A stretch of 64,000 nt of DNA from assembly GCA_052139695.1 (NCBI GenBank), contig JBKQWF010000307.1:72297-136296 (forward strand), given 5' to 3'. The notes below the pieces were generated by a model. It had not been told where the DNA came from. It searched no databases and was given only the letters and a program-made list of their open reading frames with translations. The translations under genes and the position numbers were made by a program. The first letter of the stretch is position 1; each line of letters opens with the position of its first letter. This stretch comes from Limisphaerales bacterium. GTDB taxonomy: Bacteria > Verrucomicrobiota > Verrucomicrobiia > Limisphaerales > Palsa-1400. Below, one piece after another: positions 40,970 through 59,059 of the stretch.

Positions 40970-43270
40970 ATGAAAATAAAACAACGAACCAGAAAGGCGC
41001 AATCCTGTCTTTTTGCGATTGCGCTGATAACCACGGTCGCCTTCGCGGCGAAAGCGGCCCCTCCCTACCTCAACGCCCGCATTACCCCGCGGCCGGTCAC
41101 ACCCAACGACGTCACCGTCTATAATCTCGCGGCCAGCACCGAGTATTCGGGCGGCTTGAGCACCATCGGGATTGGCACACCAGCCTATTTGGAGCTGGAT
41201 GTCACTAATACCGTTTCTCTTCAATCCATCACGAACATTACCTGGTCCTTGACCGGGCCTTTTGGGTCGGCTGCCGCCTATACGAACAGCCCGCTGCCGA
41301 ACACCATGCCTGTTTTCCTGCCGTCCGATCGTTTGGTCTATCAGGTTGCCAGCCGCGTTTTGCTCCGCCCGGATGTGGCGGGACAATACACTCTGACCGC
41401 GGCGATCGCCACGACCAACGGCGTTACCAATGTCAGCGCCAACCTGATTGCGGGGACCTATTATGGCGTCGCCGGGTGCGAACTTTGCCACAGCGGCGGC
41501 GTTCAAGCCCCTGACACGTACCATCCCTGGCTCACGACTGGCCACGCCAGCATCTTTACCGGCGGCATCGATGGCTTGGATGGCAGCCATTATAGCGTCT
41601 CCTGCATTAAGTGCCACACGGTCGGATATGATACGAACGCGGTCACATTCCCGGATAACGGCTTCTACTCCGTGGCGCAAAAAGATGGCTGGACGTTTCC
41701 GTCCGTCTTAGTCAGTTCAAATTACGCCAATATGCCGGCCAATTTGCAGAATTTAGCCAATGTGCAATGCGAGAATTGCCACGGTCCCGGCAGCGAGCAC
41801 ATGGCCTTGCTCGGCGACACCACGGCCTCCAATTGGCCGAGTCTTGATGTTCCGGCCACGGTGGGAACGTGCGTGCAATGCCATGACGCTCCTCCAAACC
41901 ATGCCGATGGCACTCAATGGTACGCCTCCTCCCATGCCGTCACGACGACCATTCCTTCCGGGTCGGGCCGGCAATATTGCGTGCAATGCCACACCGAGAG
42001 CGGATTCATCTCTATTGTCTCGAACAATGCGGCGGGCAATGGAATTACTTACTCCTCGAACACCGTCTATGCCGCGATTGGCTGCCAAACTTGCCATGAG
42101 CCGCATGGCCTGACGGCTCCGACCAACGATAGTCACTTAATCCGAGCTATGGTCTCCGCGACCTTCGGGGACGGCACGGTCATCACCAATGGCGGCGAGG
42201 GCAATCTGTGCATGACTTGCCATCACAGCCGTGATGGCTCGGCCGTGACCAACGTCGCCAATTATCCCTTGGGCCGCAACACCTGGCCCGGCGGATCGAG
42301 CTTTGGCCCGCATGATGGCGTGCAAGGAGACATGATCGAGGGCATCAACGCCATTACCTATGGACAAGTGATTCCCAGTTCCGCCCACCGCTATTCGGTC
42401 ACAAATTCTTGCGTTGGTTGCCATATGCAAACCATCGCCTCCACCGACCCCGGCTTCCTCCTCTCCGGCGGACACACCTTCGAAATGAGCTATAAAGTTG
42501 TTTCCAACGGCGTGACGAACAAGGTGGACCAGGTGGCGGTCTGCAATCAATGCCACGGCGGAATCACTACCTTCAACTTCCCGGTGGAAGATTACGCCAA
42601 CACCGGCGCCGTCCAGGGTGTTCAAACCGAAGTTCAGATCCTGCTGAACCAATTGTCCACCTTGTTGCCGAACTCCAGCGGCGTTATCGATGGCTCGGTC
42701 AAGACCAGCCTTTCGGTCAAGACCAACTGGACGACGGCGCAACTGCAAGCCGCCTATGATTGGCAATTTGTCAACAATGACGGCAGCCTCGGCGTCCACA
42801 ATGCCCCCTATGCGACTGGCCTGCTCAAGGCCTCAATCGCTAACCTGACGGGCGTTTCCGTGCCAGGCGGTTTGCCGGATGCGTGGGAGATAGCGAACTT
42901 CGGTTCAGTCACCAACGTCCTCGGCGCCCCCGATGCGGACCCGGCTGGCGATGGCATCCCGAACTGGCTGAAGTATTCCCTGGGGCTTAGTCCCTTCACC
43001 GCGGGTTTGGCTGTTCCTGATGGAGTTGTCTATGCCAATGGCACGGAACTGGGCGGAAGCACCAACACCATCCAGATCTACACGGCGGCGGACGTTACCT
43101 TCGACACCACCGCGGGCACCACCTACCAAATCCAGGAAGTCAGCGCTCTGAGCGATGGATGGCAGAATGTCGGAAACCCGGTTGTGGCGACTAACAATGC
43201 CTCCGTGAGCTACTTGACTCCGACAGTGGGCAATGTCCAGCAGTTCTTCCGCGTCGTCCATACGCCATAA
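40970..43270 (+). CDS. Secreted multiheme c-type cytochrome, 9 CXXCH, with a C-terminal beta-sandwich-like domain
   Basis: Signal peptide. Heme motifs are CELCH, CIKCH, CENCH, CVQCH x2, CQTCH, CMTCH, CVGCH and CNQCH. The C-terminal roughly 150 aa are non-heme (DPAGDGIPNWLKY ... YQIQEVS...FFRVVHTP). Confidence 0.9.
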   Translation: MKIKQRTRKAQSCLFAIALITTVAFAAKAAPPYLNARITPRPVTPNDVTVYNLAASTEYSGGLSTIGIGTPAYLELDVTNTVSLQSITNITWSLTGPFGSAAAYTNSPLPNTMPVFLPSDRLVYQVASRVLLRPDVAGQYTLTAAIATTNGVTNVSANLIAGTYYGVAGCELCHSGGVQAPDTYHPWLTTGHASIFTGGIDGLDGSHYSVSCIKCHTVGYDTNAVTFPDNGFYSVAQKDGWTFPSVLVSSNYANMPANLQNLANVQCENCHGPGSEHMALLGDTTASNWPSLDVPATVGTCVQCHDAPPNHADGTQWYASSHAVTTTIPSGSGRQYCVQCHTESGFISIVSNNAAGNGITYSSNTVYAAIGCQTCHEPHGLTAPTNDSHLIRAMVSATFGDGTVITNGGEGNLCMTCHHSRDGSAVTNVANYPLGRNTWPGGSSFGPHDGVQGDMIEGINAITYGQVIPSSAHRYSVTNSCVGCHMQTIASTDPGFLLSGGHTFEMSYKVVSNGVTNKVDQVAVCNQCHGGITTFNFPVEDYANTGAVQGVQTEVQILLNQLSTLLPNSSGVIDGSVKTSLSVKTNWTTAQLQAAYDWQFVNNDGSLGVHNAPYATGLLKASIANLTGVSVPGGLPDAWEIANFGSVTNVLGAPDADPAGDGIPNWLKYSLGLSPFTAGLAVPDGVVYANGTELGGSTNTIQIYTAADVTFDTTAGTTYQIQEVSALSDGWQNVGNPVVATNNASVSYLTPTVGNVQQFFRVVHTP

Positions 43271-43416: not shown

Positions 43417-44325
43417 ATGATGAGCACGTCGCCAACAAAAAACGTGGAGGTTCCAGAGAAGCGGCGTGGGCGCGTTGTTGTCCGAATCCTCATTCCGTCG
43501 CTGCTCTTCTTCCTCGCAGGCGCGGCTTTGAGCGCGATCTTGATTTCCCGTTTCTCACGCGCCCCAGACCCGGCGAACGATGCGGGGGCCGTCCAGCTCT
43601 CGGAGGCGACCAAGACAATTTTGCAACGACTGGATTCGCCGATAGAGATCCGCTTTTACTCTATTTTAGATACAGCGACTGTGTCAGATTCTGTCCAGGC
43701 TTATGCCGGGCGGGTGGATCAATTGCTCTCTCAGTATGAACAACTGGGCAGCAACCGGGTGAGATTGATACGCTATAATTCTTTGGTCAGTTCCAACGTG
43801 GCCGCCGCGCAAGCGGATGGCATCAGAGCTTTTAATATCGAGAAAGGCGACAGTTCCTTTTTGGGAATAGCGGTCGTCTGCGATGGGCAAAGAGAATCTC
43901 TCTCGTCTCTCGCTCCGGAATGGGAGCAGGCATTGGAACCCGACCTCAGCCGGGCAATCGCGCGAGCCGCCGAAGCGCGGCAGGCGGCGCAACCGGTGGC
44001 TCGGGCCGATGCCGCCACCCTGGCTGAAGTCAAACGTTTAGTTCCTAACGCGGACGCCGTTTCCCTGGCCGACGGCACGGGGCAATTGCGCGGCACGGCG
44101 ATCGCCCAATTCGCCCAAACAGCCCAGGAATTGCAAACGCAAGTGAAGGAAGCGCAGGAACGTTTCCTTAAGGCACAAAGCAGCCAGTCCGAGGAGGGGC
44201 AGAAGGCGGCCCTGGAGCAATTGCGGAAAATCCAAGCTGAAGCAACGGACAGATTACGACAAATCGCCATCAACTCACACGCGCAGGTAGCGGCGCTGCA
44301 ACAAATGAAGAAGGCAGCGCCTTGA
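43417..44325 (+). CDS. Membrane-anchored hypothetical protein with GldG-N-like region and Gln/Ala-rich coiled-coil tail
   Basis: 302 aa with a TM segment (ILIPSLLFFLAGAALSAILI). LDSPIEIRFYS...YAGRVDQLLSQYEQL resembles the N-terminus of ABC-auxiliary GldG-type proteins. It overlaps the next ORF by 4 nt. Confidence 0.45.
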   Translation: MMSTSPTKNVEVPEKRRGRVVVRILIPSLLFFLAGAALSAILISRFSRAPDPANDAGAVQLSEATKTILQRLDSPIEIRFYSILDTATVSDSVQAYAGRVDQLLSQYEQLGSNRVRLIRYNSLVSSNVAAAQADGIRAFNIEKGDSSFLGIAVVCDGQRESLSSLAPEWEQALEPDLSRAIARAAEARQAAQPVARADAATLAEVKRLVPNADAVSLADGTGQLRGTAIAQFAQTAQELQTQVKEAQERFLKAQSSQSEEGQKAALEQLRKIQAEATDRLRQIAINSHAQVAALQQMKKAAP

Positions 44326-44375
44326 GGCCGGAATGCAAATCTCACGATCCTATTCATCGACAATTGCTCCAACGC

Positions 44376-45956
44376 ATGAATAGGGCAATCCGCCATCTCC
44401 TTCGCCGGCCTTCTTTTCTTTTACTGGGAGTGGTGCTGGCTTCCGCGGCTCCAGCGCAAGAGGTTCAACATCTGAGCACTAATTTGCCGGGAGGGATGCC
44501 TGGGCTGCCCATCATTACGGGAATCGCTTCTGTTACCAATGGCGTGAAGGTAACATGGGATGGGCCTTCGGGTTACTATCAACTATTTGAATCTCCAACT
44601 ACCAACAAGCCGGTGTGGCGGGCATTGACCAGGCAAACGGACTTGCTCCGCAATGCCATTGTGCCAAGCCGTTATAGCAATGCTTTTTTCCGAGTAGCAG
44701 GTCCGCCGCCTCAATATGCCGAGGCTGAGACGTGCCTGGCATGTCATGCGCCGATTTTAAATACCGAGATTCATACCCTGCACGCCGTTGCGTTCAGCAA
44801 CGCGTCGTTCGCGGCTTGCGGCGGCCAGACCAATAGCTCTTGCCTGGCCTGCCATACGGTGGGATTCGATTTGCCGACAGGATTTGTCAGCGCGGCCCGG
44901 ACACCGCCATTGGCCAATGTCCAATGTGAGAATTGTCATGGTCCGGCGGGGCCGCACGCCGCCAATCCCGCCGACCCGCTGGTCAGACCGCGTGTCGAGG
45001 TGGCTGCCACCGTTTGCGGCGGCTGTCATTCTGATCCTCGACATCCAACCTACGAAGAATGGACCAACAGCGCTCACGCGCAGGTGGTCGAAGATATGAA
45101 TCCCGCCAGCCGAATCGATGCCTGCGGACGGTGTCATTCCGGGACAGTGCGTTTAAGCTTGCTGGAAAATATGGCGCTGCCCGCGGGCGACGCGGATATC
45201 GGCATTGTCTGCGCCACCTGCCACGACCCGCATCAAACCAATGCCTATCCCGCGCAACTGCGCAACCCGGTGGCATCGACCAATGATTATTTCATGCCGG
45301 CGAACGGCACGTTTGCCAGCTCCTACAATCCGGAGATCAATATTTGCGCCCAATGCCATAATCACGCGGGCGCCTCGTGGACCAATAACGCCTGCGAACC
45401 GCACCATTCACTGCAATACAACATGCTGCTCGGCTCTGTCGGCGAGTTGAGTTCCGGCCTGGCGCCTTACCAACCGGCCACGCACGCGCTGGCGATCACC
45501 AACCAGTGTGTCGGGTGCCACATGCAGACTTCCTCCTTTGTCAGTGATTCACAACCGGCGGTGACAGGCCATAGTTTTAAGGTTGAGACATATACCCTCT
45601 GCCTCAACTGCCATTCTCTGCCTGAGCAGACCGTTGCTTTCACCACCAGCGACGTGTCAAATCAAGTGCAGCAGGTCAAATCCCTTTTGGACGACTGGGC
45701 GACTAACAAGGCGCCGGCGGCCTTGGCCAAGTACGGCGTTCTCGCTTGGGAATATACCACGCCTGGAGGACTTTCTTCGGGTGGACCGGGACCGAACGCC
45801 GCGGAGCAAGCGCTGATTCCCGAGAACATTCGCAAGGCGCGGTTCAATCTCTACCTGGTGCGGAATGACGGCAGCTTCGGCGTTCACAACCCACATTTTA
45901 CCATCAACCTTCTGCAAACGGCGGCAGGCTGGGTTGAGGGGGAACTAGACCCATAA
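44376..45956 (+). CDS. Secreted multiheme c-type cytochrome, 9 CXXCH, with an N-terminal beta-sandwich-like domain
   Basis: Likely start MNRAIRHLLRRPSFLLLGVVLASAAPAQE; the tracked ORF starts at 44322. Heme motifs are CLACH x2, CENCH, CGGCH, CGRCH, CATCH, CAQCH, CVGCH and CLNCH. Confidence 0.85.
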   Translation: MNRAIRHLLRRPSFLLLGVVLASAAPAQEVQHLSTNLPGGMPGLPIITGIASVTNGVKVTWDGPSGYYQLFESPTTNKPVWRALTRQTDLLRNAIVPSRYSNAFFRVAGPPPQYAEAETCLACHAPILNTEIHTLHAVAFSNASFAACGGQTNSSCLACHTVGFDLPTGFVSAARTPPLANVQCENCHGPAGPHAANPADPLVRPRVEVAATVCGGCHSDPRHPTYEEWTNSAHAQVVEDMNPASRIDACGRCHSGTVRLSLLENMALPAGDADIGIVCATCHDPHQTNAYPAQLRNPVASTNDYFMPANGTFASSYNPEINICAQCHNHAGASWTNNACEPHHSLQYNMLLGSVGELSSGLAPYQPATHALAITNQCVGCHMQTSSFVSDSQPAVTGHSFKVETYTLCLNCHSLPEQTVAFTTSDVSNQVQQVKSLLDDWATNKAPAALAKYGVLAWEYTTPGGLSSGGPGPNAAEQALIPENIRKARFNLYLVRNDGSFGVHNPHFTINLLQTAAGWVEGELDP

Positions 45957-45958
45957 TT

Positions 45959-46822
45959 ATGAAGTGGATCAAAACAATGGCAGCCGGTGGTTGCGAGGAC
46001 AAAGTCGCGATCGGCACGCGGGTCCTGGCTTTCACCATCCTGCTGCTTCCGTTTCTGCTTTTCATTTCCTGCGGGACGCCGACCCGTCCGGTCGTCGTGC
46101 TGCCCAATGTGCCGGGCGCCAAGTATATCGGCTCCAAGGAATGCGAACAGTGTCATGACGAACTTTGCCGGGATTTTGTCACGGCCGACCACGCGCGTCT
46201 CATCGCGGAAGGAACCAACGCCATCAACGCGGGCTGTGAATCCTGTCACGGCCCTTGCAGTCTGCACTCGGAATCCGGCGGAGACACCAAACCTCCCTTT
46301 AGCTTCACATCCGGCCGTCCGCAATCCTCCAGTTTTGAGCGGGTGGGGCTGGAGCCTAACCGCTCCATCGAGACGGCTTGCTTTCAATGCCATCCGGAAG
46401 TGCGTGGCAAACTGAACCTGCCCAGTCATCATCCGGTGGCGGAGGGAAGGATGAGCTGCGTGGATTGTCATTCTCCGCACAGAGGTTCCATCCACGTCGG
46501 CGGGGGCACGTCCATGCTCACCCAAAATCAGGCCTGCATCCGCTGCCATCCTGAGGAGCGCGGCCCTTATGTGTTTGAACACGACGCTTTGCGCGAAGGC
46601 TGCACGGTTTGTCATGACGCGCATGGCTCGATCAATCCCAAGCTGCTCACGGTGCGCGATTCCAATCTCTGTTTGAAGTGCCACTTCCAACAATCCAGCG
46701 GCGGCCAGCTCTTCATTGGCGGGCAAGACCATACGCTGCGGGTGCAGCAGGGCTCTTGTTGGACCGCGGGCTGTCATGAAGCCGTTCATGGCTCGCGGGT
46801 CAGCCCGACTCTTCAATTCTGA
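45959..46822 (+). CDS. Periplasmic multiheme cytochrome lipoprotein (7 CXXCH plus 1 CX4CH)
   Basis: Signal peptide with a lipobox-like LFISC. Heme motifs are CEQCH, CESCH, CFQCH, CVDCH, CIRCH, CTVCH and CLKCH, with a terminal CWTAGCHEAVHGS. The heme density (about 1 per 30 aa) is like the periplasmic components of porin-cytochrome conduits. Confidence 0.85.
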   Translation: MKWIKTMAAGGCEDKVAIGTRVLAFTILLLPFLLFISCGTPTRPVVVLPNVPGAKYIGSKECEQCHDELCRDFVTADHARLIAEGTNAINAGCESCHGPCSLHSESGGDTKPPFSFTSGRPQSSSFERVGLEPNRSIETACFQCHPEVRGKLNLPSHHPVAEGRMSCVDCHSPHRGSIHVGGGTSMLTQNQACIRCHPEERGPYVFEHDALREGCTVCHDAHGSINPKLLTVRDSNLCLKCHFQQSSGGQLFIGGQDHTLRVQQGSCWTAGCHEAVHGSRVSPTLQF

Positions 46823-46828: not shown

Positions 46829-48916
46829 ATGATTCCGTTCAAAAACATCTTTCTGGCGCTGGCGGGGACGGTCGTAACGGCGGCGGCGGCGGAATCGACC
46901 AATACTCCCGCGCCTCCCGCGTTGACGCCGGAGCAATTATACGAAGGAGGAACCAACTCCTTCACCAATTGGATCGAGCTGGCCACCGGCGGTTTCTTTA
47001 TCAGCGGCGACAAAGCGCAGTTTCAGCAATTGCATCAAGTCTCAGGCTACCCGTACGGCGGCCTTCAGGATTTTCATTACCAGGAAAACCTGGACAAGAC
47101 GACGACGCTGACCGCGAACGGCCATGCGCTTTTCAATGAGCACGACTACAAATTGCGCCTGGGAATCCAGAGGGAAAAAGTCGGCTACCTCAATCTTTCT
47201 TACGATCAATCGCGGGAATGGGAAAACGGGGCCGGCGGCTTTTTCCCGCCAACGGGCGCTTATTACTCGCTTCCGGGCAACGCCCTGGGACTGGATCGCG
47301 CGAATTTTGGGATCGAGGCTGGTTTAACCCTGGATAATAAACCGAAGATTGTCTTTAAGTACAATCACAAGACACGCGAGGGAGAAGAAGCTTCCACCAG
47401 TTGGGGACTGGCCCATCCCGATAGCGGCTCCTTGACGCGGGGAATCAGTCCGTCCTTCTACGGCATTAACGAGCGGATCGACAGTTTTCAACTGGACATC
47501 AGCCATCACATTGACAAAACGGACGTGGGCTTGGGCTTTACCTTTGAGACCGGCAAACTCAACGACGCTCTCAATATCACGCAGTTTCCCACTGAACCGC
47601 TCCAGCAAAAGACCACCGACCGCGAAGGCACGTCTTACGATCAATTCAGCGTTCACACTTACACGGAGACATGGATTACTAATAACCTCATGCTCTCCTC
47701 CGGCTTTTCCTATACGCATCTGGACAATAATTTTTCCGGCAGCCGGATTTACGGCTCTGACTTTGACGTGGGTTATGTTCCGAATGCGCAAAACGGCTTT
47801 GGTTATTATGGCCTGGCGGGAGATTCGCGCCTGAACGATTACGTGATGGACTTGAACCTCCTCTACCGGCCCTCGCCTCACTTGACAATTATCCCCTCGA
47901 TCCGCGTCCAGGACGAGGACTGGAACGCCTACTCCAGCGGAATGGAGACGTTGGAGAATTATGCGGCGGTGCCTTTCACCTCCGATAGTGACCGGGGGGT
48001 GTTGGATGTGATTGAGCGGCTGGATCTGCGCTACAATGGGCTGACGAACTGGGTCTTCACCGGCCGTGGCGACTGGACGGAAGGTCATGGGAATCTGAAC
48101 GAGAATGGCGGGGTGCTGCCCATCGAAGGCATTGGCTTGCAGCCGGTGCTGGAAGAGATGGAGGATAACCGCTTCTTTCAGAAATACTCTCTCGGCGCCA
48201 AGTGGTATCCAGACCGGCGTGTCGCGATCGACCTTGGGGGATACTATAAGTTCGACCATTACGGCTACGATTTCAATTACGATAGCACGCCGAACAATAG
48301 CGCCAGCCGTTATCCCGGTTACCTTGTCATGCAGGACTTCCAAACGTATGATGGCAACTTTCGCTTGACGATCCGGCCCCGGCAAAATGTCACCTTGATC
48401 TCGCGCTACGAATACCAATGGTCCACCATTGACACCACGCCCGATCCTGTTTCCGGCCTCCCCGACGTGGAATCTTCGACCATGAATACCCACGTCATCG
48501 CCCAAGACGTGAGTTGGGTGCCTTTCTCTCGCTGGTCCTTGCAAGCCGGGCTGGACTATGTTCTAAGCGAAACCAAGACGCCCGCATCGCAAGTCACACA
48601 GGCCATCCTTAATTCCCAGAATAACTACTGGACAGTCAATGTTTCTTCCGACGTTGTCCTGGACAATAAAACCGATCTGCGGTTGAGTTATCTTTATTAC
48701 GCGGCGGATAATTACGTTAATAATGACCTCTATGGCGTGCCCTATGGCGCGAGCGATGGCGAACACAACATTACGGCCACTCTCACCCGCCGCATTCGCC
48801 CCAATCTTCGCTGGATGCTGCGATACGGGTTCTTTCTCTACAACGATCTGACGTACGGCGGCAACCAGGATTTCCGCGTGCATATGATCTACACTTCGCT
48901 GCAATACCGGTTTTGA
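46829..48916 (+). CDS. Outer-membrane beta-barrel protein, MtrB/PioB/OmbB-like by context
   Basis: 695 aa with a signal peptide. Alternating hydrophobic and Tyr/Gly/Asn/Asp-rich strands run throughout, and the C-terminus is YTSLQYRF (terminal Phe, an OMP signature). It lies 6 nt after the 8-heme gene. Confidence 0.75.
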   Translation: MIPFKNIFLALAGTVVTAAAAESTNTPAPPALTPEQLYEGGTNSFTNWIELATGGFFISGDKAQFQQLHQVSGYPYGGLQDFHYQENLDKTTTLTANGHALFNEHDYKLRLGIQREKVGYLNLSYDQSREWENGAGGFFPPTGAYYSLPGNALGLDRANFGIEAGLTLDNKPKIVFKYNHKTREGEEASTSWGLAHPDSGSLTRGISPSFYGINERIDSFQLDISHHIDKTDVGLGFTFETGKLNDALNITQFPTEPLQQKTTDREGTSYDQFSVHTYTETWITNNLMLSSGFSYTHLDNNFSGSRIYGSDFDVGYVPNAQNGFGYYGLAGDSRLNDYVMDLNLLYRPSPHLTIIPSIRVQDEDWNAYSSGMETLENYAAVPFTSDSDRGVLDVIERLDLRYNGLTNWVFTGRGDWTEGHGNLNENGGVLPIEGIGLQPVLEEMEDNRFFQKYSLGAKWYPDRRVAIDLGGYYKFDHYGYDFNYDSTPNNSASRYPGYLVMQDFQTYDGNFRLTIRPRQNVTLISRYEYQWSTIDTTPDPVSGLPDVESSTMNTHVIAQDVSWVPFSRWSLQAGLDYVLSETKTPASQVTQAILNSQNNYWTVNVSSDVVLDNKTDLRLSYLYYAADNYVNNDLYGVPYGASDGEHNITATLTRRIRPNLRWMLRYGFFLYNDLTYGGNQDFRVHMIYTSLQYRF

Positions 48917-51195: not shown

Positions 51196-51620
51196 AGGGA
51201 CTCCGGTTCTTTGGAAGGTTGATCGGTTTCTCTGAGGGTCTTATGGGCCAAATTCAGAATTTCCTCTTGATTTAGTCCGGCTTCGGCGGCTTCGCGGAAG
51301 GCTTCCCGCAGCAACCCTGCCGCCGCCGCCAGTTTAGCTTCACGGCTGCGGGCCTGGCCTTGCTCCGCCACGAAGGTGCCGAGGCCGTGCCGGCGGTAAA
51401 TGATGCCTTCACTTTCGAGCTGTTCGTAGGCGCGTTTGACGGTAATGACGCTGACCAGCAGATCTTCCGCCAGTTGGCGGAAGGAAGGGAGGGCATCGCC
51501 GGGTTTGAGCCGGTCGGCGCTGATTTCCCGTTTGAGTCGATTGACGATCTGCTGGTAAAGGGTGGCGCCTTCAGCCGGGGAAACCGGCCCAATCCAGCAG
51601 GATTTGCGATCTTGTCTCAC
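51192..51620 (-). CDS. GntR-family transcriptional regulator (YtrA subfamily)
   Basis: LYQQIVNRLKREISADRLKPGDALPSFRQLAEDLLVSVITVKRAYEQLESEGIIYRRHGLGTFV, with a short C-terminal helical tail. It overlaps the ATPase start by 4 nt. The tracked start is a GTG. Confidence 0.85.
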   Translation of the reverse strand: MRQDRKSCWIGPVSPAEGATLYQQIVNRLKREISADRLKPGDALPSFRQLAEDLLVSVITVKRAYEQLESEGIIYRRHGLGTFVAEQGQARSREAKLAAAAGLLREAFREAAEAGLNQEEILNLAHKTLRETDQPSKEPESL

Positions 51621-51639
51621 TGATATACTGTGTATATCA
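51621..51639. promoter_or_regulatory. Candidate GntR/YtrA operator palindrome
   Basis: TGATATAC-TGT-GTATATCA is a perfect 8-bp inverted repeat that directly abuts the 5' end of the GntR ORF. Confidence 0.5.
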
Positions 51640-51941
51640 CAGCAGCACAGTTGTCAACCGCTTTTCTTTGCGTCGGACGGCCTGGCGGGGCACCAGCGGA
51701 TGTTCAGACCGGGACAAAAAATGACTAGAATGAGGCGCCTGATTTTGAGCCTGTTCGAGAAGAGGCAATTCTTATCTAACCAAAAATCAATTCCTCAGAA
51801 CAAAAAAAGCAAAGCAAATCACAATTACGGTGAGGCAAAGGAATGGCGTTCCCGGCGATGTTATCAGCGGACAAAGTGGCCATGCCGCGGCTCGCACTGG
51901 GGAGTCGAGCGCCGGATGGCGAAGAGAAACGGATAACAACT

Positions 51942-52271
51942 ATGAAAAGATCATACTTACTGCTCGCTGTTCTGGCATTAGCCGCCGGGACATCGGCCGT
52001 GCTGGCGGCTGATTCCGGCGAACTCTGGCAGAAAAACTGCGCCAAATGTCACGGCAATGACGGCGCGGGCGACACCAAAATGGGCAAGAAACTGGAAATC
52101 AAGGACCTGACCGACGCCAAATACCAGGCTTCCTTTACCGATGAACAGGCCTTCAAAGCCATCAAGGAAGGAATCAAGGAGGGCGACAAGACGAAAATGA
52201 AAGCGGGGGAAGGCCTTAGTGACGAGGACATCAAGGCGCTCGTGGCCAAGACTCGCTCTTTCAAGAAATAG
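51942..52271 (+). CDS. Monoheme class I cytochrome c (periplasmic)
   Basis: I place the start at the internal ATG at 51942 (MKRSYLLLAVLALAAGTSAVLA). One heme site, CAKCHGNDGAGDTKMGKK. Confidence 0.8.
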   Translation: MKRSYLLLAVLALAAGTSAVLAADSGELWQKNCAKCHGNDGAGDTKMGKKLEIKDLTDAKYQASFTDEQAFKAIKEGIKEGDKTKMKAGEGLSDEDIKALVAKTRSFKK

Positions 52272-52406
52272 CCGGTGAACAGGGCCGATGCGAAGCAAAG
52301 CGGAGTTCTAACCTGGCCAGCTTCGCGTTGGTTCCACCCCCCAGATTTTTCGGGCGGCTGGAAGGCCGTCCGGGAGAAAAAAGTCACAATCAACCAAGGA
52401 GATTAC

Positions 52407-52733
52407 ATGAAAACAGCACTGGTCCTCGCGCTGGCGGCAGCCGCATTGACGGCCACGACCGCGCGGAGCGACGATGTTAAAGCGACCTACGACAAAGAAT
52501 GCACCAAGTGTCACGGCGCGGACGGCAAGGGCGAGACCAAAATGGGCAAAAAGCTCGGCGCCAAGGATTATACCGATGCCAAAGTGCAGGACGCGTTAAA
52601 AGACGACGCGGCCTTCAAATCGATTAAGGAAGGCCTCAAGAAGGACGACAAAACCCTGATGAAGCCGGCGGAAGGGCTGTCCGACGATCAGATCAAGGGC
52701 TTAGTCGCCTACATGCGTTCCTTCAAGAAATAA
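52407..52733 (+). CDS. Monoheme class I cytochrome c, tandem paralog
   Basis: I place the start at the internal ATG at 52407, preceded by AAGGAG (MKTALVLALAAAALTA). Heme site CTKCHGADGKGETKMGKK. It is colinear with the upstream paralog down to the ...RSFKK end. Confidence 0.85.
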   Translation: MKTALVLALAAAALTATTARSDDVKATYDKECTKCHGADGKGETKMGKKLGAKDYTDAKVQDALKDDAAFKSIKEGLKKDDKTLMKPAEGLSDDQIKGLVAYMRSFKK

Positions 52734-52740
52734 GACAACC

Positions 52741-54222
52741 ATGAGTGCTCCCGCGCCATCCTCGGCTCCGCGTTCAACCGTTTGGAGAAATTGGACCAGC
52801 CTGGCTGGCGCGGTCGTCATGGTCGCCAGCGCCTTCGCATTTATCTTATTGTTCTTTCTCGATGCGGTGGCGCATTCCAATAATCCGTATCTCGGCATTC
52901 TGACGTTTCTTGTCGCGCCTGCCTTCTTCTTCCTGGGGCTTTTGCTCTTTCTCATCGGTGTCTGGCAAAAGCACCGGGACCAGGCCAAGGCCACTGGCGG
53001 GGCCATGCCGCTGCAAATCCGGGTTGATTTCTCGCGCCCGCGCGACCGGCGCATGCTCGCCATCTTTGTCCCGGCGAGCGTTTGCTTCTTTCTGGTGACG
53101 GCCATGGGCAGCTATCACACCTATCACTTTACGGAATCGGTCACGTTTTGCGGCGAGGCGTGCCATACCGTCATGCAGCCTGAACTGACCACTTACCGGC
53201 ACGGCCCGCACGCGCGGGTGGCCTGCGTGGAATGTCACATTGGCAGCGGGGCGGAATGGTATGTGCGCTCCAAATTATCCGGCACTTATCAAGTCTATGC
53301 CACCCTGGCCAAGAAGTATCCGCGGCCGATTCCTACGCCTGTCAAAAACCTGCGTCCGGCGCAGGAAACGTGCGAGGAATGCCACTGGCCGCAAAAATTC
53401 GTCGGCAACCTCGACCGCACTTATTCCTATTTCCTGCCCGACGCCACCAATTCGCTCTATTCCGTCCGTCTTTTGCTGAGAGTGGGCGGAGGCGATCCCA
53501 CGCATGGCCCCGAAGGCGGCATCCATTGGCACATGAACGTGGCCAACAAAATCGAATATGTGGCGGCCGATGAGGCCCGGCAGAATATCCCGTGGGTGAG
53601 GATGACCGATCGCCAGGGAGTGGTCACAGAGTTCCGCACCGCCAGTTTTACCAACGACCTCAGCAAAATGAGCGTGCGCCGGATGGATTGCATGGATTGC
53701 CACAACCGCCCCGCCCATGTCTTCCGCTCGCCGGAGAGCGCCGTGAACATGGCCATGTCTCTGGGCCAAATCGACCGCTCCTTGCCTTACGTCAAAACCA
53801 ACGCGGTCGGCGTTTTATGCGGCAAGTACAAGGATGACGACGAAGCTTTTCAGCAAATAGCCGAGACCTTCCAGAAACGTTATCCGACCAATCTCACCGC
53901 CGGTTTGGCCATCAAGACCCTCCAACAGATTTATAAGGACAATTTCTTTCCCGCGATGAAGTCCGACTGGCGCGCGTATCCGGACAATATCGGCCACAAG
54001 GATTGGCCGGGTTGTTTTCGCTGTCATGATGGCAAGCACAAGACGGCGGATGGGACCCGATCCATCCGATTCAATGATTGCAACGTCTGCCATGTCATTC
54101 TGGCGCAGGGCAGCGGCGAGCAGATGAATCAATTGAGCCCACTTGGGCAGAAGTTCGCCCACCCGTTGGAAGAATATGACCCAGCCTACCAATGCACCGA
54201 CTGCCATAATGGCGGACTCTGA
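52741..54222 (+). CDS. NapC/NirT-type inner-membrane multiheme cytochrome (6 CXXCH plus 1 CX3CH), ImcH-like
   Basis: Three N-terminal TM helices, then a NapC/NirT-like region (CGEACHTVMQPELTTYRHGPHARVACVECH ... CEECH), plus CMDCH, CFRCH, CNVCH and CTDCH. Confidence 0.8.
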   Translation: MSAPAPSSAPRSTVWRNWTSLAGAVVMVASAFAFILLFFLDAVAHSNNPYLGILTFLVAPAFFFLGLLLFLIGVWQKHRDQAKATGGAMPLQIRVDFSRPRDRRMLAIFVPASVCFFLVTAMGSYHTYHFTESVTFCGEACHTVMQPELTTYRHGPHARVACVECHIGSGAEWYVRSKLSGTYQVYATLAKKYPRPIPTPVKNLRPAQETCEECHWPQKFVGNLDRTYSYFLPDATNSLYSVRLLLRVGGGDPTHGPEGGIHWHMNVANKIEYVAADEARQNIPWVRMTDRQGVVTEFRTASFTNDLSKMSVRRMDCMDCHNRPAHVFRSPESAVNMAMSLGQIDRSLPYVKTNAVGVLCGKYKDDDEAFQQIAETFQKRYPTNLTAGLAIKTLQQIYKDNFFPAMKSDWRAYPDNIGHKDWPGCFRCHDGKHKTADGTRSIRFNDCNVCHVILAQGSGEQMNQLSPLGQKFAHPLEEYDPAYQCTDCHNGGL

Positions 54223-56419
54223 TTGTCCGCAAGCAATTAAAACCAAAGTCCGCTCCGCGCGCCCCGCCGCGCGCCCGCGGCGAAGCGGCGCCGTAGCTTT
54301 TCTTGGGCTCTTGGCTGTTACTCTGCTCTTAACGCAAGGCCGCGTCTTTGCCGCGGAAACTCTGGCCAATGCGGATTGCCTGGACTGCCATTCCGACCCC
54401 ACCACTGCGCGCATGGTCGCCGGGAAGCAGGTTCCGATGGCGGTTTTTCCCACCAACATCTTTCTCAAATCGGTCCATGCCAAACTGAATTGCATCGATT
54501 GCCACGTAACTGTCAAAGAGATGGTTCACCCGAGCGGACTGCCGCCGGCCCAATGCGCCGGTTGTCACGACGCGCCCTCCAGCCATCAGAACGCGGTCAA
54601 GGATTACGCCGGCAGCATTCACGGCATGAGCAAAGCCATGGGCGCCTCGGCGGCCGCCTCCTGCGTCGATTGCCACGGCTCGCATGACATTCTGGCCGTG
54701 AAGGACCCCGCTTCGCCGGTTTTCAAGCTGAACCTGCCGCGGACTTGCGCCAAATGCCATAACAACCCCGGCCTGACAACGGAGTATCGGATGAAGTATC
54801 CCGACGTGGCCTCGCAATACAGCGATAGCATTCACGGACGCGCGCTCCTGCAAATGGGCCTGATTCTGGCGCCTTCCTGCAATGATTGTCATGGCGTGCA
54901 TGACATTAAACGGAGCGTCGATCGCAGTTCCACGGTTAACCATGCCAATGTCGCGGCCACTTGCGGCAAGTGCCACCTGGGGATTGAGAAAACCTACAAC
55001 GCCAGCATTCACGGACAGATTCTGGCCAAAGGAGATTCTAGCGGCCCGGTTTGCACCGATTGTCACTCGGCCCATGAAATCGACTCTCCTTCCGGCAGCA
55101 ATTTCAAAGCGCGCAGCGACGAGCGTTGCGGGCGCTGCCACCAGGACCGATTGGCCCATTATCGCGAAACTTATCACGGCAAAGCGATGGCTTTGGGGCG
55201 GCCCAACCACGCCCCGGATGTCGCCGCTTGCTATGATTGTCACGGCTACCACGATGTCCTGCCCCGCTCCAATCCGGCGTCGCATCTGTCCCAAGCCAAC
55301 ATCGTCGGGACCTGTCGCAAATGCCATGCGGATGCCAGTCCCAGTTTCGCCCGATACATTCCGCACGCCAACCCGATGGACGGACGGAACTATCCGCAGT
55401 TGCATTGGACGTTTGTTGGGATGACAACGCTGTTGATCTGCGTTTTTCTCCTCTTCGGCGCGCACACCGGCCTGTGGCTTTTCCGCTCCGGCTACCTTTA
55501 TCTGCACGATTCCAAAGCGTTCCGCGAAGCCAAAGTGGAAACGCAACAAGGCGGCGAATGGTTTACGCGCTTTCCGCCCTTTGAACGCTTCCTCCATTTC
55601 CTGGTGGTGACCAGCTTCCTGCTCCTTGTCATTACCGGCATGCCTCTAAAGTTCTATTATACAAGCTGGGCCAAGGTGCTGTTTAACTTCCTGGGGGGCA
55701 CAGAAGTGGCGCGGAGTCTGCATCATTTCGGCGCGGTCGTGACCTTCCTTTATTTTGGCCTGCACCTGTCCAAGCTGCTGAGCAAGTCCTGGAAAGGCCG
55801 CGCCGCCCTTTCGGGGCCGGGCGGCTTTCTTGGCACGTGCGGACGTCTCAAAACAGTGCTTTTCGGGCCGGATTCCATGATCCCGACTTTCCAGGATTGG
55901 AAAGATTTTATCGCGCACCAGAAATGGTTTTTCGGCAAAGGCCCCAAACCGCAATTTGACCGCTGGACTTATTGGGAAAAGTTTGACTACTTCGCCGTCT
56001 TCTGGGGCGTGTTCATCATTGGCGCTTCCGGCCTGGTCATGTGGTTTCCGCAGTTCTTCTCCCATTTCATGCCGGGCTGGGTGATCAATATCGCCCTGAT
56101 TGTGCATTCGGACGAAGCGCTCCTCGCGGCGGGCTTTATTTTCACCATTCATTTCTTTAACACTCATTTCCGCCTGGAAAAATTCCCGATGGACACGGTG
56201 ATTTTCTCCGGCCGCATCTCCAAAACGGAAATGTTGCACGAGCGCAAACGCTGGTATGAGCGTCTCCTGGCCGCTGGCCGATTGGAAGACCACCGGGTGA
56301 AAGACGAATGGGAACGCTGGAAAGGCATCGCCCGCTCCTTCGGCTACCTCTTTTTCGGCGTCGGCGTCATTTTGCTCCTCCTCATCGTTTATGCCATGGC
56401 CACCCGCTTGAGCCACTGA
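54209..56419 (+). CDS. Fusion of an 11-heme cytochrome c domain and a membrane cytochrome b (FdnI/HydC-like) domain, CbcL-like
   Basis: Likely start at ATG 54209 (MADSDCPQ...), overlapping the upstream gene by 14 nt. Signal or TM segment, 11 CXXCH motifs, then about 5 TM helices with conserved His residues (ERFLHFLV, SLHHFGAV, IVHSDEA, FTIHFFNTHF). Confidence 0.8.
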   Translation: MADSDCPQAIKTKVRSARPAARPRRSGAVAFLGLLAVTLLLTQGRVFAAETLANADCLDCHSDPTTARMVAGKQVPMAVFPTNIFLKSVHAKLNCIDCHVTVKEMVHPSGLPPAQCAGCHDAPSSHQNAVKDYAGSIHGMSKAMGASAAASCVDCHGSHDILAVKDPASPVFKLNLPRTCAKCHNNPGLTTEYRMKYPDVASQYSDSIHGRALLQMGLILAPSCNDCHGVHDIKRSVDRSSTVNHANVAATCGKCHLGIEKTYNASIHGQILAKGDSSGPVCTDCHSAHEIDSPSGSNFKARSDERCGRCHQDRLAHYRETYHGKAMALGRPNHAPDVAACYDCHGYHDVLPRSNPASHLSQANIVGTCRKCHADASPSFARYIPHANPMDGRNYPQLHWTFVGMTTLLICVFLLFGAHTGLWLFRSGYLYLHDSKAFREAKVETQQGGEWFTRFPPFERFLHFLVVTSFLLLVITGMPLKFYYTSWAKVLFNFLGGTEVARSLHHFGAVVTFLYFGLHLSKLLSKSWKGRAALSGPGGFLGTCGRLKTVLFGPDSMIPTFQDWKDFIAHQKWFFGKGPKPQFDRWTYWEKFDYFAVFWGVFIIGASGLVMWFPQFFSHFMPGWVINIALIVHSDEALLAAGFIFTIHFFNTHFRLEKFPMDTVIFSGRISKTEMLHERKRWYERLLAAGRLEDHRVKDEWERWKGIARSFGYLFFGVGVILLLLIVYAMATRLSH

Positions 56420-56538
56420 GGAGCACGGTCTCGCAAATTGAGGTTAATTGCCTGACGACCCGCCCGGCCAACTGCTGCCGGGGCTGGTTCAAAGAGATAA
56501 ATCCATTCCCGCCTTTGAGGGACCGCGCCGCGAAATAC

Positions 56539-58607: not shown

Positions 58608-59059
58608 ACAGCCACGGTCACGAACAGATTCAGCGCTACATCAATGGACTGGCCAGTCCGGCGGAAGCCGCCGCCTTGCAGGCGGCGTTGAGCCGGGACG
58701 CGGAGTTGCGTGCCTTGTATCTCGACTACATGAATCTTGATGTGGCTCTAAGCGCGACAGCAGAAACGATGACATTCACTGAGAACGGTCGCAATGGCAT
58801 CGCGACGTCCCCACGGGCGCACCTTCGGTCGTCGCCTCGCTACTGGCGCTGGCTCGCTGCGGCGGCGACATGCGCGGCGCTGATTATCCTTGTGTTGCTT
58901 CCCAGGCATCGCATCTCTTCGCGGGCGCGCCTGGATATTGCCGCCATTTCTTCCACGCAAAGCGCCATTGAGCGGCTTTCTCTTAAACCGCCATCATTGT
59001 TTCCAGACTGGGCGTCGCCCACCGCCTCAATGCTCACACAATCGCCAATTCTAAAATGA
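58604..59059 (+). CDS. Single-pass anti-sigma factor (candidate)
   Basis: A TTG start overlaps the sigma stop. The N-terminus EQIQRYINGLASPAEAAALQAALSRDAELRALYLDYMNLDVAL is the common anti-sigma N-terminal helix pattern. One TM segment (WRWLAAAATCAALIILVLL). Confidence 0.6.
   Translation: MNSHGHEQIQRYINGLASPAEAAALQAALSRDAELRALYLDYMNLDVALSATAETMTFTENGRNGIATSPRAHLRSSPRYWRWLAAAATCAALIILVLLPRHRISSRARLDIAAISSTQSAIERLSLKPPSLFPDWASPTASMLTQSPILK

What the first reader, a model, noticed from the sequence alone, without database searches (positions are those of the whole stretch)
51942..56419. ImcH-like and CbcL-like quinol-oxidising cytochromes encoded side by side, preceded by duplicated monoheme cytochromes c
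ORF 52741-54222 has three TM helices, a NapC/NirT-like region and 7 heme sites; the first is an unusual CX3CH, CGEACH. That is the published architecture of Geobacter ImcH. ORF 54209-56419 overlaps it by 14 nt. It fuses 11 CXXCH motifs to an FdnI/HydC-type di-heme cytochrome b membrane domain, the architecture of Geobacter CbcL (which has 9 hemes). In Geobacter these two inner-membrane proteins are encoded separately and serve different acceptor redox potentials. Here they appear translationally coupled and follow two tandem small cytochromes c that could act as periplasmic shuttles. Together with the porin-cytochrome cluster 3 kb upstream, this gives a complete predicted path from quinol to the cell surface. 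I count about 46 heme-binding motifs in 16 kb.
Basis: partly seen in the sequence, partly recalled or inferred. Interest (0 to 1): 0.75.

Follow-up and report, generated by a model that had tools for sequence, protein, structure and literature searches.

The report
ImcH-like plus CbcL-like cytochrome operon

Summary
Two tandem monoheme class I cytochromes c (51942-52271 and 52407-52733, 64% identical) come first. They are followed by a 493-aa protein with 3 TM helices and 7 heme motifs (first motif CGEACH). Its 3' end is overlapped by a gene that fuses 11 CXXCH motifs to an FdnI-type di-heme cytochrome b. The 46-heme count is exact.

The family assignments hold. D matches the published ImcH layout: heme spacing, TM positions and the conserved E/H/K/Q/Y residues. 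E has the same 11-heme/6-TM fingerprint as Verrucomicrobia proteins already listed as CbcL/MtoC/MtrH homologs (Zhong & Shi 2018). No nitrite, hydroxylamine or sulfite reductase partner and no CXXCK motif was found.

The implied rarity does not hold. In 80 species genomes carrying an ImcH homolog, 41 have a multiheme-c/cytochrome-b fusion directly next to it, usually with 11 hemes. These come from Verrucomicrobiota, Acidobacteriota, Ignavibacteriota, Dadabacteria, Binatia and Omnitrophota. Ten further Verrucomicrobia loci carry porin, 8-heme cytochrome, monoheme c and imcH in a single string.

I conclude that this is an ordinary member of a widespread but little-discussed module. Its most likely role is quinol-to-surface electron export, though the direction of flow is untested. 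I could not obtain the Geobacter sequences for a direct BLAST.

The parts
51942..52271 (+). Monoheme class I cytochrome c, copy 1 (109 aa, signal peptide, CAKCH, probable Met sixth ligand in KTKMKAG)
   Evidence: Translation. PF13442 (3e-11) and PF00034. 64% identical to copy 2. B/C-like genes sit directly upstream of imcH in most Verrucomicrobia loci.
52407..52733 (+). Monoheme class I cytochrome c, copy 2 (108 aa, CTKCH). Its stop codon lies 7 nt before the imcH-like start.
   Evidence: The closest solved relative is Kuenenia stuttgartiensis cytochrome c-552 Ks_3358 (5mxy, E=1.6e-9).
52741..54222 (+). ImcH-family inner-membrane heptaheme cytochrome (493 aa): 3 TM helices, a NapC/NirT/NrfH-like quinol site, CX3CH plus 6 CXXCH
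   Evidence: AF2 predicts helices 18-43, 49-85 and 100-131. The family profile hits NrfH 2j7a_C at E=1.3e-5. Heme and TM positions are colinear with the published GSU3259 table. E132, H142, K178, Q184 and Y193 correspond to the published E127, H137, K173, Q179 and Y188.
54176..56419 (+). CbcL/MtoC/MtrH-family cytochrome bc fusion: signal peptide, 11-heme periplasmic domain, and a C-terminal FdnI/HydC-type di-heme b membrane domain. The alternative start at 54209 gives 736 aa. The gene overlaps the imcH-like stop by 47 or 14 nt.
   Evidence: H463, H505, H633 and H653 (54209 numbering) align with FdnI heme ligands H18, H57, H155 and H169. The heme and TM fingerprint matches OQB93798.1, Oter_2603 and PAW67162.1 in the published CbcL homolog table.
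51703..51731 (+). Sigma-70-like promoter match upstream of the first cytochrome c gene (weak, consensus match only)
   Evidence: 9 of 12 positions match. Five sites were found against 2.2 expected, so this is not significant on its own.
45959..46822 (+). Periplasmic 8-heme cytochrome (7 CXXCH plus CWTAGCH) of the Verrucomicrobia porin-cytochrome type, with a possible lipobox FISC
   Evidence: GSU2203/DmsE-family hits fall below their cut-offs (169 and 151 bits). It matches the 'eight conserved heme-binding sites' description in PMC5615132. K-like genes lie next to L-like genes in 16 loci.
46829..48916 (+). Probable outer-membrane porin of the porin-cytochrome complex (695 aa)
   Evidence: No Pfam hit. 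It has a signal peptide, no Cys, no hydrophobic helix after the signal peptide, about 25 amphipathic beta-like 9-mers and a C-terminal YRF. Homologs sit directly after the 8-heme cytochrome in relatives. The AF2 single-sequence model was unusable.
44322..45956 (+). 9-heme cytochrome, probably the extracellular partner of the porin-cytochrome complex. The likely real start is the ATG at about 44376.
   Evidence: There is no CXXCK motif. There is a weak PF02335 hit over the C-terminal helical part only.
43417..44325 (+). Membrane-anchored DUF7088 protein that travels with the 9-heme cytochromes
   Evidence: PF23357. I-like genes lie next to H-like genes in L006, L008 and L011.
40970..43270 (+). 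766-aa 9-heme cytochrome with an MtrC/MtrF-like domain hit, probably cell-surface
   Evidence: Homologs lie near the imcH/cbcL-like pair in L006, L008 and L011.

Best explanation
This is a four-gene respiratory operon of an uncultured Verrucomicrobiota bacterium: cytochrome c, cytochrome c, imcH-like, cbcL-like.

Shown: the two large proteins belong to the ImcH family (NapC/NirT-related heptaheme cytochrome with 3 TM helices) and to the CbcL/MtoC/MtrH family (multiheme c domain fused to an FdnI-type di-heme cytochrome b).

Inferred mechanism: both proteins oxidise menaquinol in the inner membrane. The ImcH-like protein would do so at a periplasm-facing NrfH-type site next to its CX3CH heme. 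The CbcL-like protein would do so through its two b hemes, with a quinone site on the cytoplasmic side as in FdnI. Both would pass electrons up their periplasmic heme chains to the two soluble monoheme cytochromes c. These would carry the electrons to the 8-heme cytochrome/porin/9-heme cytochrome complex encoded 3 kb upstream, and so to an extracellular acceptor such as humic quinones or Fe(III).

The overlapping reading frames imply co-transcription and probably coupled translation. The two oxidases are therefore made together rather than being separately regulated as in G. sulfurreducens.
For: Architecture and motifs.

Family hits: PF03264, PF01292, TIGR03153 and TIGR01583; NrfH 2j7a_C by family profile, E=1.3e-5, aligning TM3, hemes 1-2 and the quinol-site Lys; FdnI 1kqf_C with all four heme-b His ligands aligned.

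Agreement with published positions for GSU3259 and for the Verrucomicrobia CbcL homologs OQB93798.1, Oter_2603 and PAW67162.1. The five conserved ImcH residues are at the expected spacing, and the [ED]-H-K-Q-[YF] pattern holds in most of the 150 cluster representatives.

Synteny: cyt c, imcH and cbcL occur in that order in L003, L004, L006, L007-L013 and others. A contiguous string of K-like cytochrome, porin, cyt c and imcH occurs in ten Verrucomicrobia loci. This links ImcH, the small cytochrome and the outer-membrane conduit.

Overlap or near-abutment of the two genes recurs in relatives.

Context: complex I, PFOR and hemA lie beside the cluster. Related porin-cytochrome clusters were reported only from MAGs of a humic bog, chiefly its anoxic layer (PMC5615132). 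None of six annotated relatives has a terminal oxidase or catalytic reductase within +/-10 kb.
Against: No experiment exists for any Verrucomicrobia member. The direction of electron flow cannot be read from sequence.

Class I His/Met monoheme cytochromes usually have potentials well above those of Geobacter's triheme PpcA carriers (my own knowledge). That would suit electron uptake or delivery to an oxidase at least as well as export.

CbcL-family members (MtoC) occur in Fe(II) oxidisers together with a monoheme cytochrome (MtoD) (PMC6295460).

In this window a divergently transcribed GntR/ABC-transporter unit (48986-51620) separates the operon from the porin-cytochrome cluster. Physical linkage here is therefore looser than in the relatives.

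The porin assignment rests on composition and synteny only.

Direct alignment with GSU3259 and GSU0274 was not possible.
Confidence: 0.6

Rival explanations
1. The same proteins run in the opposite or in both directions. Electrons taken up from extracellular Fe(II) or reduced humics through the porin-cytochrome complex reach the monoheme cytochromes c. From there they go to a terminal oxidase, and are pushed uphill into the quinone pool through the CbcL/MtoC-like and ImcH-like proteins. This would be a Mto-type lithotrophic or redox-cycling system.
For: CbcL-family MtoC proteins sit with a monoheme class I cytochrome (MtoD) in the mto clusters of Fe(II) oxidisers, and the family is proposed to work in both directions (PMC6295460). 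The carriers here are class I monoheme cytochromes rather than low-potential triheme c7. Humic lakes and bogs cycle between reduced and oxidised humics (PMC6344600).
Against: ImcH has so far only been linked to quinol oxidation (PMC6295460). The monoheme cytochromes do not detectably match the MtoD structure in the PDB search; the best hit is Kuenenia c-552. K and L are not MtoA/MtoB: the DmsE/MtrA model scores below its cut-off and there is no MtrB Pfam hit. No oxidase, RuBisCO or other lithotrophy gene lies in the window or in six annotated relatives. PFOR and a sugar-degrading lifestyle point to organotrophy (PMC5615132).
Confidence: 0.2
2. The operon is a general quinol:cytochrome c oxidoreductase, a functional substitute for the bc1 complex or alternative complex III. 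It would reduce soluble cytochrome c for a terminal oxidase or periplasmic reductases, and its link to the porin-cytochrome cluster would be incidental.
For: The immediate products of the operon are two soluble class I cytochromes c related to CcoP-type and c552-type carriers. In this window the porin-cytochrome cluster is a separate transcription unit 3 kb away. NapC/NirT relatives such as CymA serve many acceptors.
Against: Ten Verrucomicrobia loci place the 8-heme cytochrome, porin, cyt c and imcH in one uninterrupted same-strand string. That is hard to explain if the small cytochrome serves an oxidase. No oxidase genes lie within +/-10 kb in any annotated relative. Freshwater Verrucomicrobia MAGs already carry alternative complex III and cytochrome oxidase elsewhere (PMC5615132).
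Confidence: 0.15
3. The ImcH-like protein is an NrfH/NapC-type anchor for a periplasmic nitrite, hydroxylamine or sulfite reductase, and the CbcL-like protein is a formate-dehydrogenase or hydrogenase b subunit.
For: Automatic annotations call close homologs 'nitrate/TMAO reductase-like tetraheme cytochrome c subunit' and 'cytochrome b subunit of formate dehydrogenase'. There are weak NrfH and FdnI model hits. The 9-heme protein J has a weak hit to the NrfA family PF02335.
Against: The NrfH equivalog model scores 47 bits against a cut-off of 134, and FdnI scores 48 against 116. D has 7 hemes and 3 TM helices, not 4 hemes and 1 TM helix. There is no CXXCK motif anywhere in the cluster. No NrfA, Hao, MccA, Dsr, molybdopterin or NiFe subunit lies beside the pair in the window. 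The J hit covers only the C-terminal helices.
Confidence: 0.03

Closest known systems
ImcH (GSU3259) of Geobacter sulfurreducens: inner-membrane heptaheme menaquinol oxidase needed for acceptors above about -0.1 V
   Same: Both have three N-terminal TM helices and NapC/NirT/NrfH homology over TM3 and the first hemes. Both have CX3CH followed by six CXXCH. Motif positions are nearly colinear: 137/162/211/317/425/447/485 here versus the published 132/156/205/311/428/448/486. The E, K, Q and Y residues around heme 1 are conserved.
   Different: D is 493 aa rather than 507 aa, with about 9 fewer residues between hemes 4 and 5. It is about 43% identical to the nearest representative carrying the Geobacter-like fingerprint (P0256). 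It is encoded in an operon with two monoheme cytochromes and a CbcL-like gene, whereas Geobacter imcH is monocistronic (PMC4251993). The likely periplasmic partner is a monoheme class I cytochrome rather than triheme PpcA.
CbcL (GSU0274) of G. sulfurreducens and its MtoC/MtrH relatives: multiheme c domain fused to a HydC/FdnI-type di-heme b domain
   Same: Both are single polypeptides with a signal peptide, a periplasmic multiheme domain and then a six-helix b-type membrane domain. The four FdnI heme-ligand histidines are present. Spacing of hemes 4-7 in E (28/44/28) equals that of hemes 6-9 in CbcL (28/43/28). The b-domain motif FGPDS...GPKPxFxRWxYWEKFDxFAVFWG is visible in an OCR copy of the published CbcL alignment (low-quality source).
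   Different: E has 11 hemes rather than 9, and 736-747 aa rather than 619 aa. The 11-heme form is the one usually found beside imcH in other phyla (33 of 45 adjacent loci). It is already listed for Opitutus terrae and two Verrucomicrobia MAGs in the published survey. The regulatory residues V205 and F525 could not be mapped.
Verrucomicrobia porin-multiheme cytochrome clusters described by He et al. 2017 (PMC5615132)
   Same: The upstream cluster has the reported parts: a large porin-like protein, an adjacent periplasmic cytochrome with eight heme sites, and extra large multiheme cytochromes.
   Different: [quoted passage not shown] Here, and in related loci, the ImcH-like protein, the CbcL-like protein and the monoheme cytochromes fill that gap.
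mtoABCD clusters of Fe(II)-oxidising Gallionellaceae (MtoC is a CbcL homolog; MtoD is a monoheme class I cytochrome c)
   Same: Both combine a CbcL-family protein, a small monoheme class I cytochrome and an outer-membrane porin-cytochrome conduit.
   Different: K and L are not MtoA/MtoB by model scores. The small cytochromes do not detectably match MtoD in the PDB. An ImcH homolog is present here, and none was reported adjacent to mtrAB/mtoAB genes.

Membership tests
ImcH family | Three N-terminal transmembrane helices | tested here: met
   Hydropathy peaks at 21-39, 56-74 and 105-123. AF2 helices at 18-43, 49-85 and 100-131. The published GSU3259 TM helices are 13-35, 45-67 and 100-122.
ImcH family | Seven c-heme motifs, the first an atypical CX3CH directly after TM3 | tested here: met
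   CGEACH at residue 137, then CXXCH at 162, 211, 317, 425, 447 and 485. The layout matches the published table for GSU3259 and Oter_2584.
ImcH family | NapC/NirT/NrfH homology over TM3 and the first hemes, including the quinol-site lysine | tested here: met
   PF03264 E=5.5e-9. TIGR03153 E=2.5e-12 but below its cut-off. The family profile hits NrfH 2j7a_C at E=1.3e-5 with the Lys aligned.
ImcH family | Conserved E127, H137, K173, Q179 (distal ligand of heme 1) and Y188 in GSU3259 numbering | tested here: met
   E132, H142, K178, Q184 and Y193 lie at a constant +5 offset. The [ED]HKQ[YF] pattern recurs at this spacing in most of the 150 representatives. The residue list comes from bioRxiv 10.1101/2023.05.03.539133.
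ImcH family | Direct sequence similarity to GSU3259 | not tested
   The GSU3259 sequence could not be retrieved. Indirect evidence only: the same HMMER family as P0256, whose heme positions match six of the seven published for GSU3259 (five exactly, one offset by one residue); D is 43% identical to P0256.
ImcH family | Required for reduction of high-potential extracellular acceptors | not testable with these tools
   This needs genetics or electrochemistry.
CbcL/MtoC/MtrH family | Periplasmic multiheme c domain and b-type membrane domain in one polypeptide | tested here: met
   11 CXXCH motifs at residues 57-369, followed by the membrane domain at 400-732, in one ORF. The published family range is 3-23 hemes.
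CbcL/MtoC/MtrH family | HydC/FdnI-type di-heme cytochrome b with conserved heme-ligand histidines | tested here: met
   PF01292 (32.4 bits, cut-off 30.1). TIGR01583 E=1.4e-12, below its cut-off. FdnI 1kqf_C E=5.9e-4, with H463, H505, H633 and H653 aligned to H18, H57, H155 and H169.
CbcL/MtoC/MtrH family | Six transmembrane helices after the heme domain | tested here: inconclusive
   My hydropathy scan found five helices after the signal peptide, with a weaker sixth around 504-526. The orthologous OQB93798.1 is listed with six TMHMM helices at matching positions.
CbcL/MtoC/MtrH family | Nine hemes as in Geobacter CbcL proper | tested here: not met
   E has 11. It therefore belongs to the wider family and is not a CbcL orthologue in the narrow sense. 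The 11-heme form is listed in the published homolog table.
CbcL/MtoC/MtrH family | Direct sequence similarity to GSU0274 | tested here: inconclusive
   Only OCR fragments of the published alignment were available. About 30 of 51 positions are identical over the FGPDS...FAVFWG stretch. The source is unreliable.
NrfH / nitrite-reductase anchor | Tetraheme protein with a single TM helix, a score above the equivalog cut-off, and an adjacent NrfA with CXXCK | tested here: not met
   47 bits against a cut-off of 134.2. D has 7 hemes and 3 TM helices. No CXXCK motif in the cluster.
Mto/Mtr porin-cytochrome system | Decaheme MtrA/MtoA and an MtrB-family porin | tested here: not met
   K has 8 hemes and scores 151 bits against a cut-off of 192 for TIGR03508. 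L has no Pfam hit.
Verrucomicrobia porin-MHC complex (He et al. 2017) | Large porin next to a periplasmic cytochrome with eight heme sites, often with an extracellular multiheme cytochrome | tested here: met
   K has 8 sites. L is 695 aa with outer-membrane-protein hallmarks. J and H are 9-heme proteins. Beta-barrel topology itself was not demonstrated.

The most novel reading that the evidence does not exclude
ImcH and an 11-heme cytochrome bc (CbcL-like) may form an ancestral two-protein unit that is made together in fixed proportion and works together. One possibility is a physical complex that combines a periplasm-side quinol site (ImcH) with a cytoplasm-side quinone site reached through the b hemes (CbcL-like). 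That would form a redox loop or a bc1-like Q-cycle substitute. On this reading, the G. sulfurreducens picture of two independent, potential-specialised oxidases would be a derived special case. The pair would then be the missing inner-membrane step for extracellular electron transfer in Verrucomicrobiota, Acidobacteriota and other soil and bog phyla.
Probability: 0.15. Interest if true: 0.65.

Novelty: new member of a known kind. Interest (0 to 1): 0.33.

Why it matters
Verrucomicrobiota and Acidobacteriota are among the most abundant bacteria in soils, peat and humic lakes. Whether they respire humic substances or iron affects carbon budgets.

Published work described their outer-membrane porin-cytochrome clusters but left the inner-membrane step open (PMC5615132). 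The ImcH discovery paper noted that finding ImcH's partners would improve sequence-based prediction (PMC4251993).

This window, read together with the 86 related loci, points to a recurrent set of partners: a monoheme cytochrome c, a CbcL-like cytochrome bc and the porin-cytochrome complex. The set could serve as a genomic marker.

The window itself adds no new protein type. The useful result is the correction that adjacency is the rule outside G. sulfurreducens.

Tried and rejected
1. All three word-index homolog searches returned only close relatives of the query: Verrucomicrobia, and Polyangia, Deferrimicrobiaceae and 'Deltaproteobacteria'. The cluster look-up gave no Geobacter name. The genome scan kept the 80 best hits to the window protein, with no Desulfuromonadia among them. 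I used published motif and TM position tables as fingerprints instead.

2. The single-sequence PDB search with D found nothing. The family profile did find NrfH.

3. The AF2 model of the putative porin L from a single sequence had mean pLDDT 29.5 and was unusable. The AF2 model of D with a 26-sequence alignment had pLDDT 62. Foldseek against the PDB gave no match with E<=0.001, as expected for an apo multiheme model.

4. I looked for ImcH/cytochrome-b fusion proteins as 'Rosetta stone' evidence. None of the 150 best cluster representatives has a b domain. The long forms (up to 1166 aa and 27 hemes) only add c hemes.

5. I checked for CXXCK motifs, catalytic reductases and oxidases in the window and in six annotated relatives. 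None was found.

6. The promoter and terminator scan was not informative beyond one weak promoter-like site upstream of the first cytochrome c gene. Rfam found only three tRNAs elsewhere in the window.

7. Literature searches for a prior statement that imcH and cbcL are adjacent found none in the held library. There is an implicit case in D. acetexigens, where the accession numbers are consecutive.

Full report
**What is in the sequence**

The + strand from 51942 to 56419 carries four tightly packed genes.
- Genes 1 and 2 (51942-52271 and 52407-52733) encode 109- and 108-aa proteins. Each has a Sec-type signal peptide, one CXXCH motif and a downstream Met. Both hit Pfam class I cytochrome c models (PF13442, PF00034). 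They are 64% identical to each other, so they are a tandem duplicate. Their closest solved relative is the small soluble cytochrome c-552 Ks_3358 of Kuenenia (5mxy, E=1.6e-9).
- Gene 3 (52741-54222, 'D') starts 7 nt after gene 2. It encodes a 493-aa protein with three hydrophobic helices (21-39, 56-74, 105-123). It has seven heme motifs, the first being CGEACH at residue 137.
- Gene 4 ('E') ends at 56419. It has 11 CXXCH motifs followed by a membrane domain that hits PF01292 and the formate-dehydrogenase gamma models.

The heme count of 46 over 40970-56419 is exact.

An ATG at 54176 gives a 47-nt overlap and has GGAAGA five bases upstream. The same 47-nt overlap is possible in relatives L003, L004, L005, L007 and L019, and gene callers chose it in L003 and L004. 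The apparent conservation of the extra N-terminal residues is partly forced, because that stretch is the alternative reading frame of D's last heme motif. The start therefore remains open, but the genes overlap under either choice.

**Organism and context**

Named close homologs are all Verrucomicrobiota, including Limisphaerales and several bog- and soil-derived MAGs. The best species-level genome match to D is only 74% identical (L007). The window's species is therefore not among the representatives the scan reached.

Upstream on the minus strand lie a complex I (nuo) operon and a pyruvate:ferredoxin oxidoreductase. hemA comes next, followed by the porin-cytochrome cluster at 40970-48916. 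That cluster holds a 9-heme protein, a DUF7088 protein, a second 9-heme protein, an 8-heme periplasmic cytochrome and a 695-aa porin-like protein.

A divergently transcribed GntR regulator and ABC transporter (48986-51620) separate that cluster from the operon. A Fic-domain ORF follows the operon.

**Is D an ImcH?**

The published definition is three TM helices, NapC/NirT homology, and seven heme sites with the first being CXXXCH (PMC4251993; PMC6295460). D meets each point.
- Its heme motif positions (137/162/211/317/425/447/485) track those tabulated for GSU3259 (132/156/205/311/428/448/486). Its TM helices track them as well.
- The biochemical study of ImcH names E127, H137, K173, Q179 and Y188 as conserved around heme 1. 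D has E132, H142, K178, Q184 and Y193, a constant +5 offset.
- The same [ED]-H-K-Q-[YF] spacing recurs in most of the 150 best cluster representatives.
- A profile of the family hits the solved NrfH quinol dehydrogenase (2j7a_C, E=1.3e-5). The alignment covers TM3, hemes 1-2 and the quinol-site lysine.
- The NrfH equivalog model scores far below its cut-off (47 versus 134 bits). D is therefore a relative of NrfH, not an NrfH.

The family is very large: 3479 clusters at 50% identity with E<=0.001, and 759 with E<=1e-30.

I could not obtain the GSU3259 sequence. The direct BLAST is therefore untested.

**Is E a CbcL?**

E has the defining fusion of a periplasmic multiheme domain to an FdnI/HydC-type di-heme b domain. 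H463, H505, H633 and H653 align with the four heme ligands of E. coli FdnI.

The supplementary table of the published survey of CbcL/MtoC/MtrH homologs lists three Verrucomicrobia proteins with 11 hemes and six TM helices. Their positions match E after a shift of 16-18 residues. These are OQB93798.1, Opitutus terrae Oter_2603 and PAW67162.1. E's type has therefore already been catalogued as a CbcL homolog. The same paper lists Opitutus terrae Oter_2584 as an ImcH homolog.

Geobacter CbcL has nine hemes and 619 aa. E belongs to the wider family rather than being a strict orthologue.

An OCR copy of the published CbcL alignment shows a b-domain stretch, FGPDS...GPKPxFxRWxYWEKFDxFAVFWG, that E shares. 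The source quality is poor, and I count it only as a hint.

**How unusual is the adjacency?**

It is not unusual. In six metagenome or genome contigs carrying close homologs of D, the order cytochrome c, imcH-like, cbcL-like recurs. The two large genes overlap or abut in four of them. In a fifth, a multiheme/FeS/NrfD module is inserted between them.

I searched these with the window's proteins by tblastn.
- 20 loci have a multiheme-c/cytochrome-b fusion directly downstream of imcH. These are mostly Verrucomicrobiota, plus one Omnitrophota.
- 21 loci have one directly upstream. These come from Acidobacteriota (Acidobacteriaceae, Terriglobales, Sulfotelmatobacter, Korobacteraceae), Ignavibacteriota, Dadabacteria and Binatia.
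- Several of the remaining loci are cut by contig ends.
- Adding the four adjacent metagenome contigs gives 45 adjacent loci. In 41 of them the c and b domains lie in one ORF, and in 33 the partner has exactly 11 CXXCH motifs.

A paper on Desulfuromonas acetexigens cites ImcH and CbcL homologs with consecutive accession numbers, both expressed on electrodes.

G. sulfurreducens, where imcH is monocistronic, therefore looks like the exception. None of the papers I could search states this explicitly.

**What the synteny says about function**

In ten Verrucomicrobia loci (Chthoniobacter, Luteolibacter, Akkermansiaceae, Opitutaceae, Didemnitutus and others) the genes form one uninterrupted same-strand string. 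The order is 8-heme cytochrome, porin, monoheme cytochrome c, imcH.

This ties the small cytochrome and ImcH to the outer-membrane conduit. It is the best available evidence that the monoheme cytochromes shuttle electrons between them.

He et al. described this porin/8-heme-cytochrome type in bog Verrucomicrobia and left the inner-membrane step unspecified.

The putative porin L has no Pfam hit, and its single-sequence AF2 model failed. It does have a signal peptide, no cysteine, no hydrophobic helix, about 25 amphipathic beta-like segments and a C-terminal YRF.

**Most likely mechanism and its limits**

The mechanism I consider most likely has four steps.
1. Menaquinol is oxidised by the ImcH-like protein at a periplasm-facing NrfH-type site. 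It is also oxidised by the CbcL-like protein through its b hemes.
2. Both heme chains reduce the monoheme cytochromes.
3. These reduce the 8-heme cytochrome held in the porin.
4. Surface 9-heme cytochromes reduce humic quinones or Fe(III).

The family memberships and the synteny are shown. The direction of flow, the quinone-site sidedness, the partners and the acceptor are inferred.

The main rival is reverse or bidirectional flow, as in Mto systems. Those also combine a CbcL homolog with a monoheme class I cytochrome. Class I His/Met cytochromes are usually high-potential (my own knowledge), which fits that rival or a route to an oxidase.

Several points weigh against the rivals. ImcH is known only as a quinol oxidase. 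No oxidase or lithotrophy gene lies near the pair in the window or in six annotated relatives. The habitat signal also points to anoxic, humic-rich settings.

**Verdict**

However, the arrangement is a common one and both protein types were already catalogued in this phylum. This is a new member of a known kind.

The by-product of the check may deserve a proper census: a cross-phylum imcH plus 11-heme cytochrome bc pair, and a porin-cytochrome / cytochrome c / imcH string in Verrucomicrobia. It leaves open a modest chance that the two oxidases work as a unit rather than as alternatives.

Noticed in passing
L001 11566-14968; L003 3041-6352 and 6942-9444; L004 7011-9531; L005 1519-4160 and 6981-9504; L006 7444-9957: Relatives carry one or two extra quinol-oxidoreductase-type modules beside imcH: a small c3-like multiheme cytochrome, a 4Fe-4S protein and an NrfD-type membrane protein. 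This resembles Geobacter Cbc4/CbcSTU. In one version the NrfD protein (about 570-580 aa) is fused to a cyclic-nucleotide-binding domain (PF00027), an odd combination. The window lacks these modules.
   Followed up: partly
window 44322-45956 and 40970-43270: The two 9-heme cytochromes share a C-terminal motif, NDGS[FL]GVHN. The 544-aa one scores above the Pfam cut-off for the NrfA family (PF02335, 28.7 bits), but only over the C-terminal helical part, and it lacks CXXCK. These are presumed surface cytochromes with an NrfA-like C-terminal domain.
   Followed up: partly
window 22965-38386, minus strand: A complex I (nuo) operon is followed on the same strand by a 1214-aa pyruvate:ferredoxin oxidoreductase. 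A third Proton_antipo_M subunit gene lies between them. The + strand is strongly A-rich here (AT skew 0.17-0.27 over 26-36 kb), which fits T-rich membrane-protein genes on the other strand. NuoE, NuoF and NuoG were not seen among the ORFs scanned.
   Followed up: partly
window 39642-40802: hemA (glutamyl-tRNA reductase, the first step of heme synthesis) sits directly upstream of the 46-heme cytochrome region on the same strand.
   Followed up: no
proteins P0248, P0250, P0274, P0349, P0390: Some ImcH-family members are 876-1166 aa with 19-27 CXXCH motifs. They have an ImcH N-terminus extended by long c-heme chains and no b domain.
   Followed up: partly
L010, L012, L016: Contigs carrying a typical Verrucomicrobia cyt c / imcH / cbcL string are labelled as Bifidobacterium or Bifidobacteriaceae MAGs. 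This is almost certainly a binning or labelling error in the public records.
   Followed up: no
window 56308-57798: A Fic/DOC-domain ORF lies immediately downstream of the CbcL-like gene. Its longest reading frame overlaps that gene's 3' end by 112 nt. The ORF appears to break off within the Fic motif region.
   Followed up: no
window 62723-62949, minus strand: Three tandem tRNA genes (Rfam RF00005, 41-50 bits).
   Followed up: no
window 12855-21402, minus strand: Two adjacent giant sensor histidine kinases (1459 and 1387 aa). One has Reg_prop/Y_Y_Y beta-propeller and PAS domains.
   Followed up: no
window 58250-59736, and L005 16267-17363: An ECF-type sigma factor next to a Metal_resist/LTXXQ periplasmic protein lies about 2 kb downstream of the operon. 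The same pair lies about 3 kb downstream of the cbcL-like gene in relative L005.
   Followed up: no
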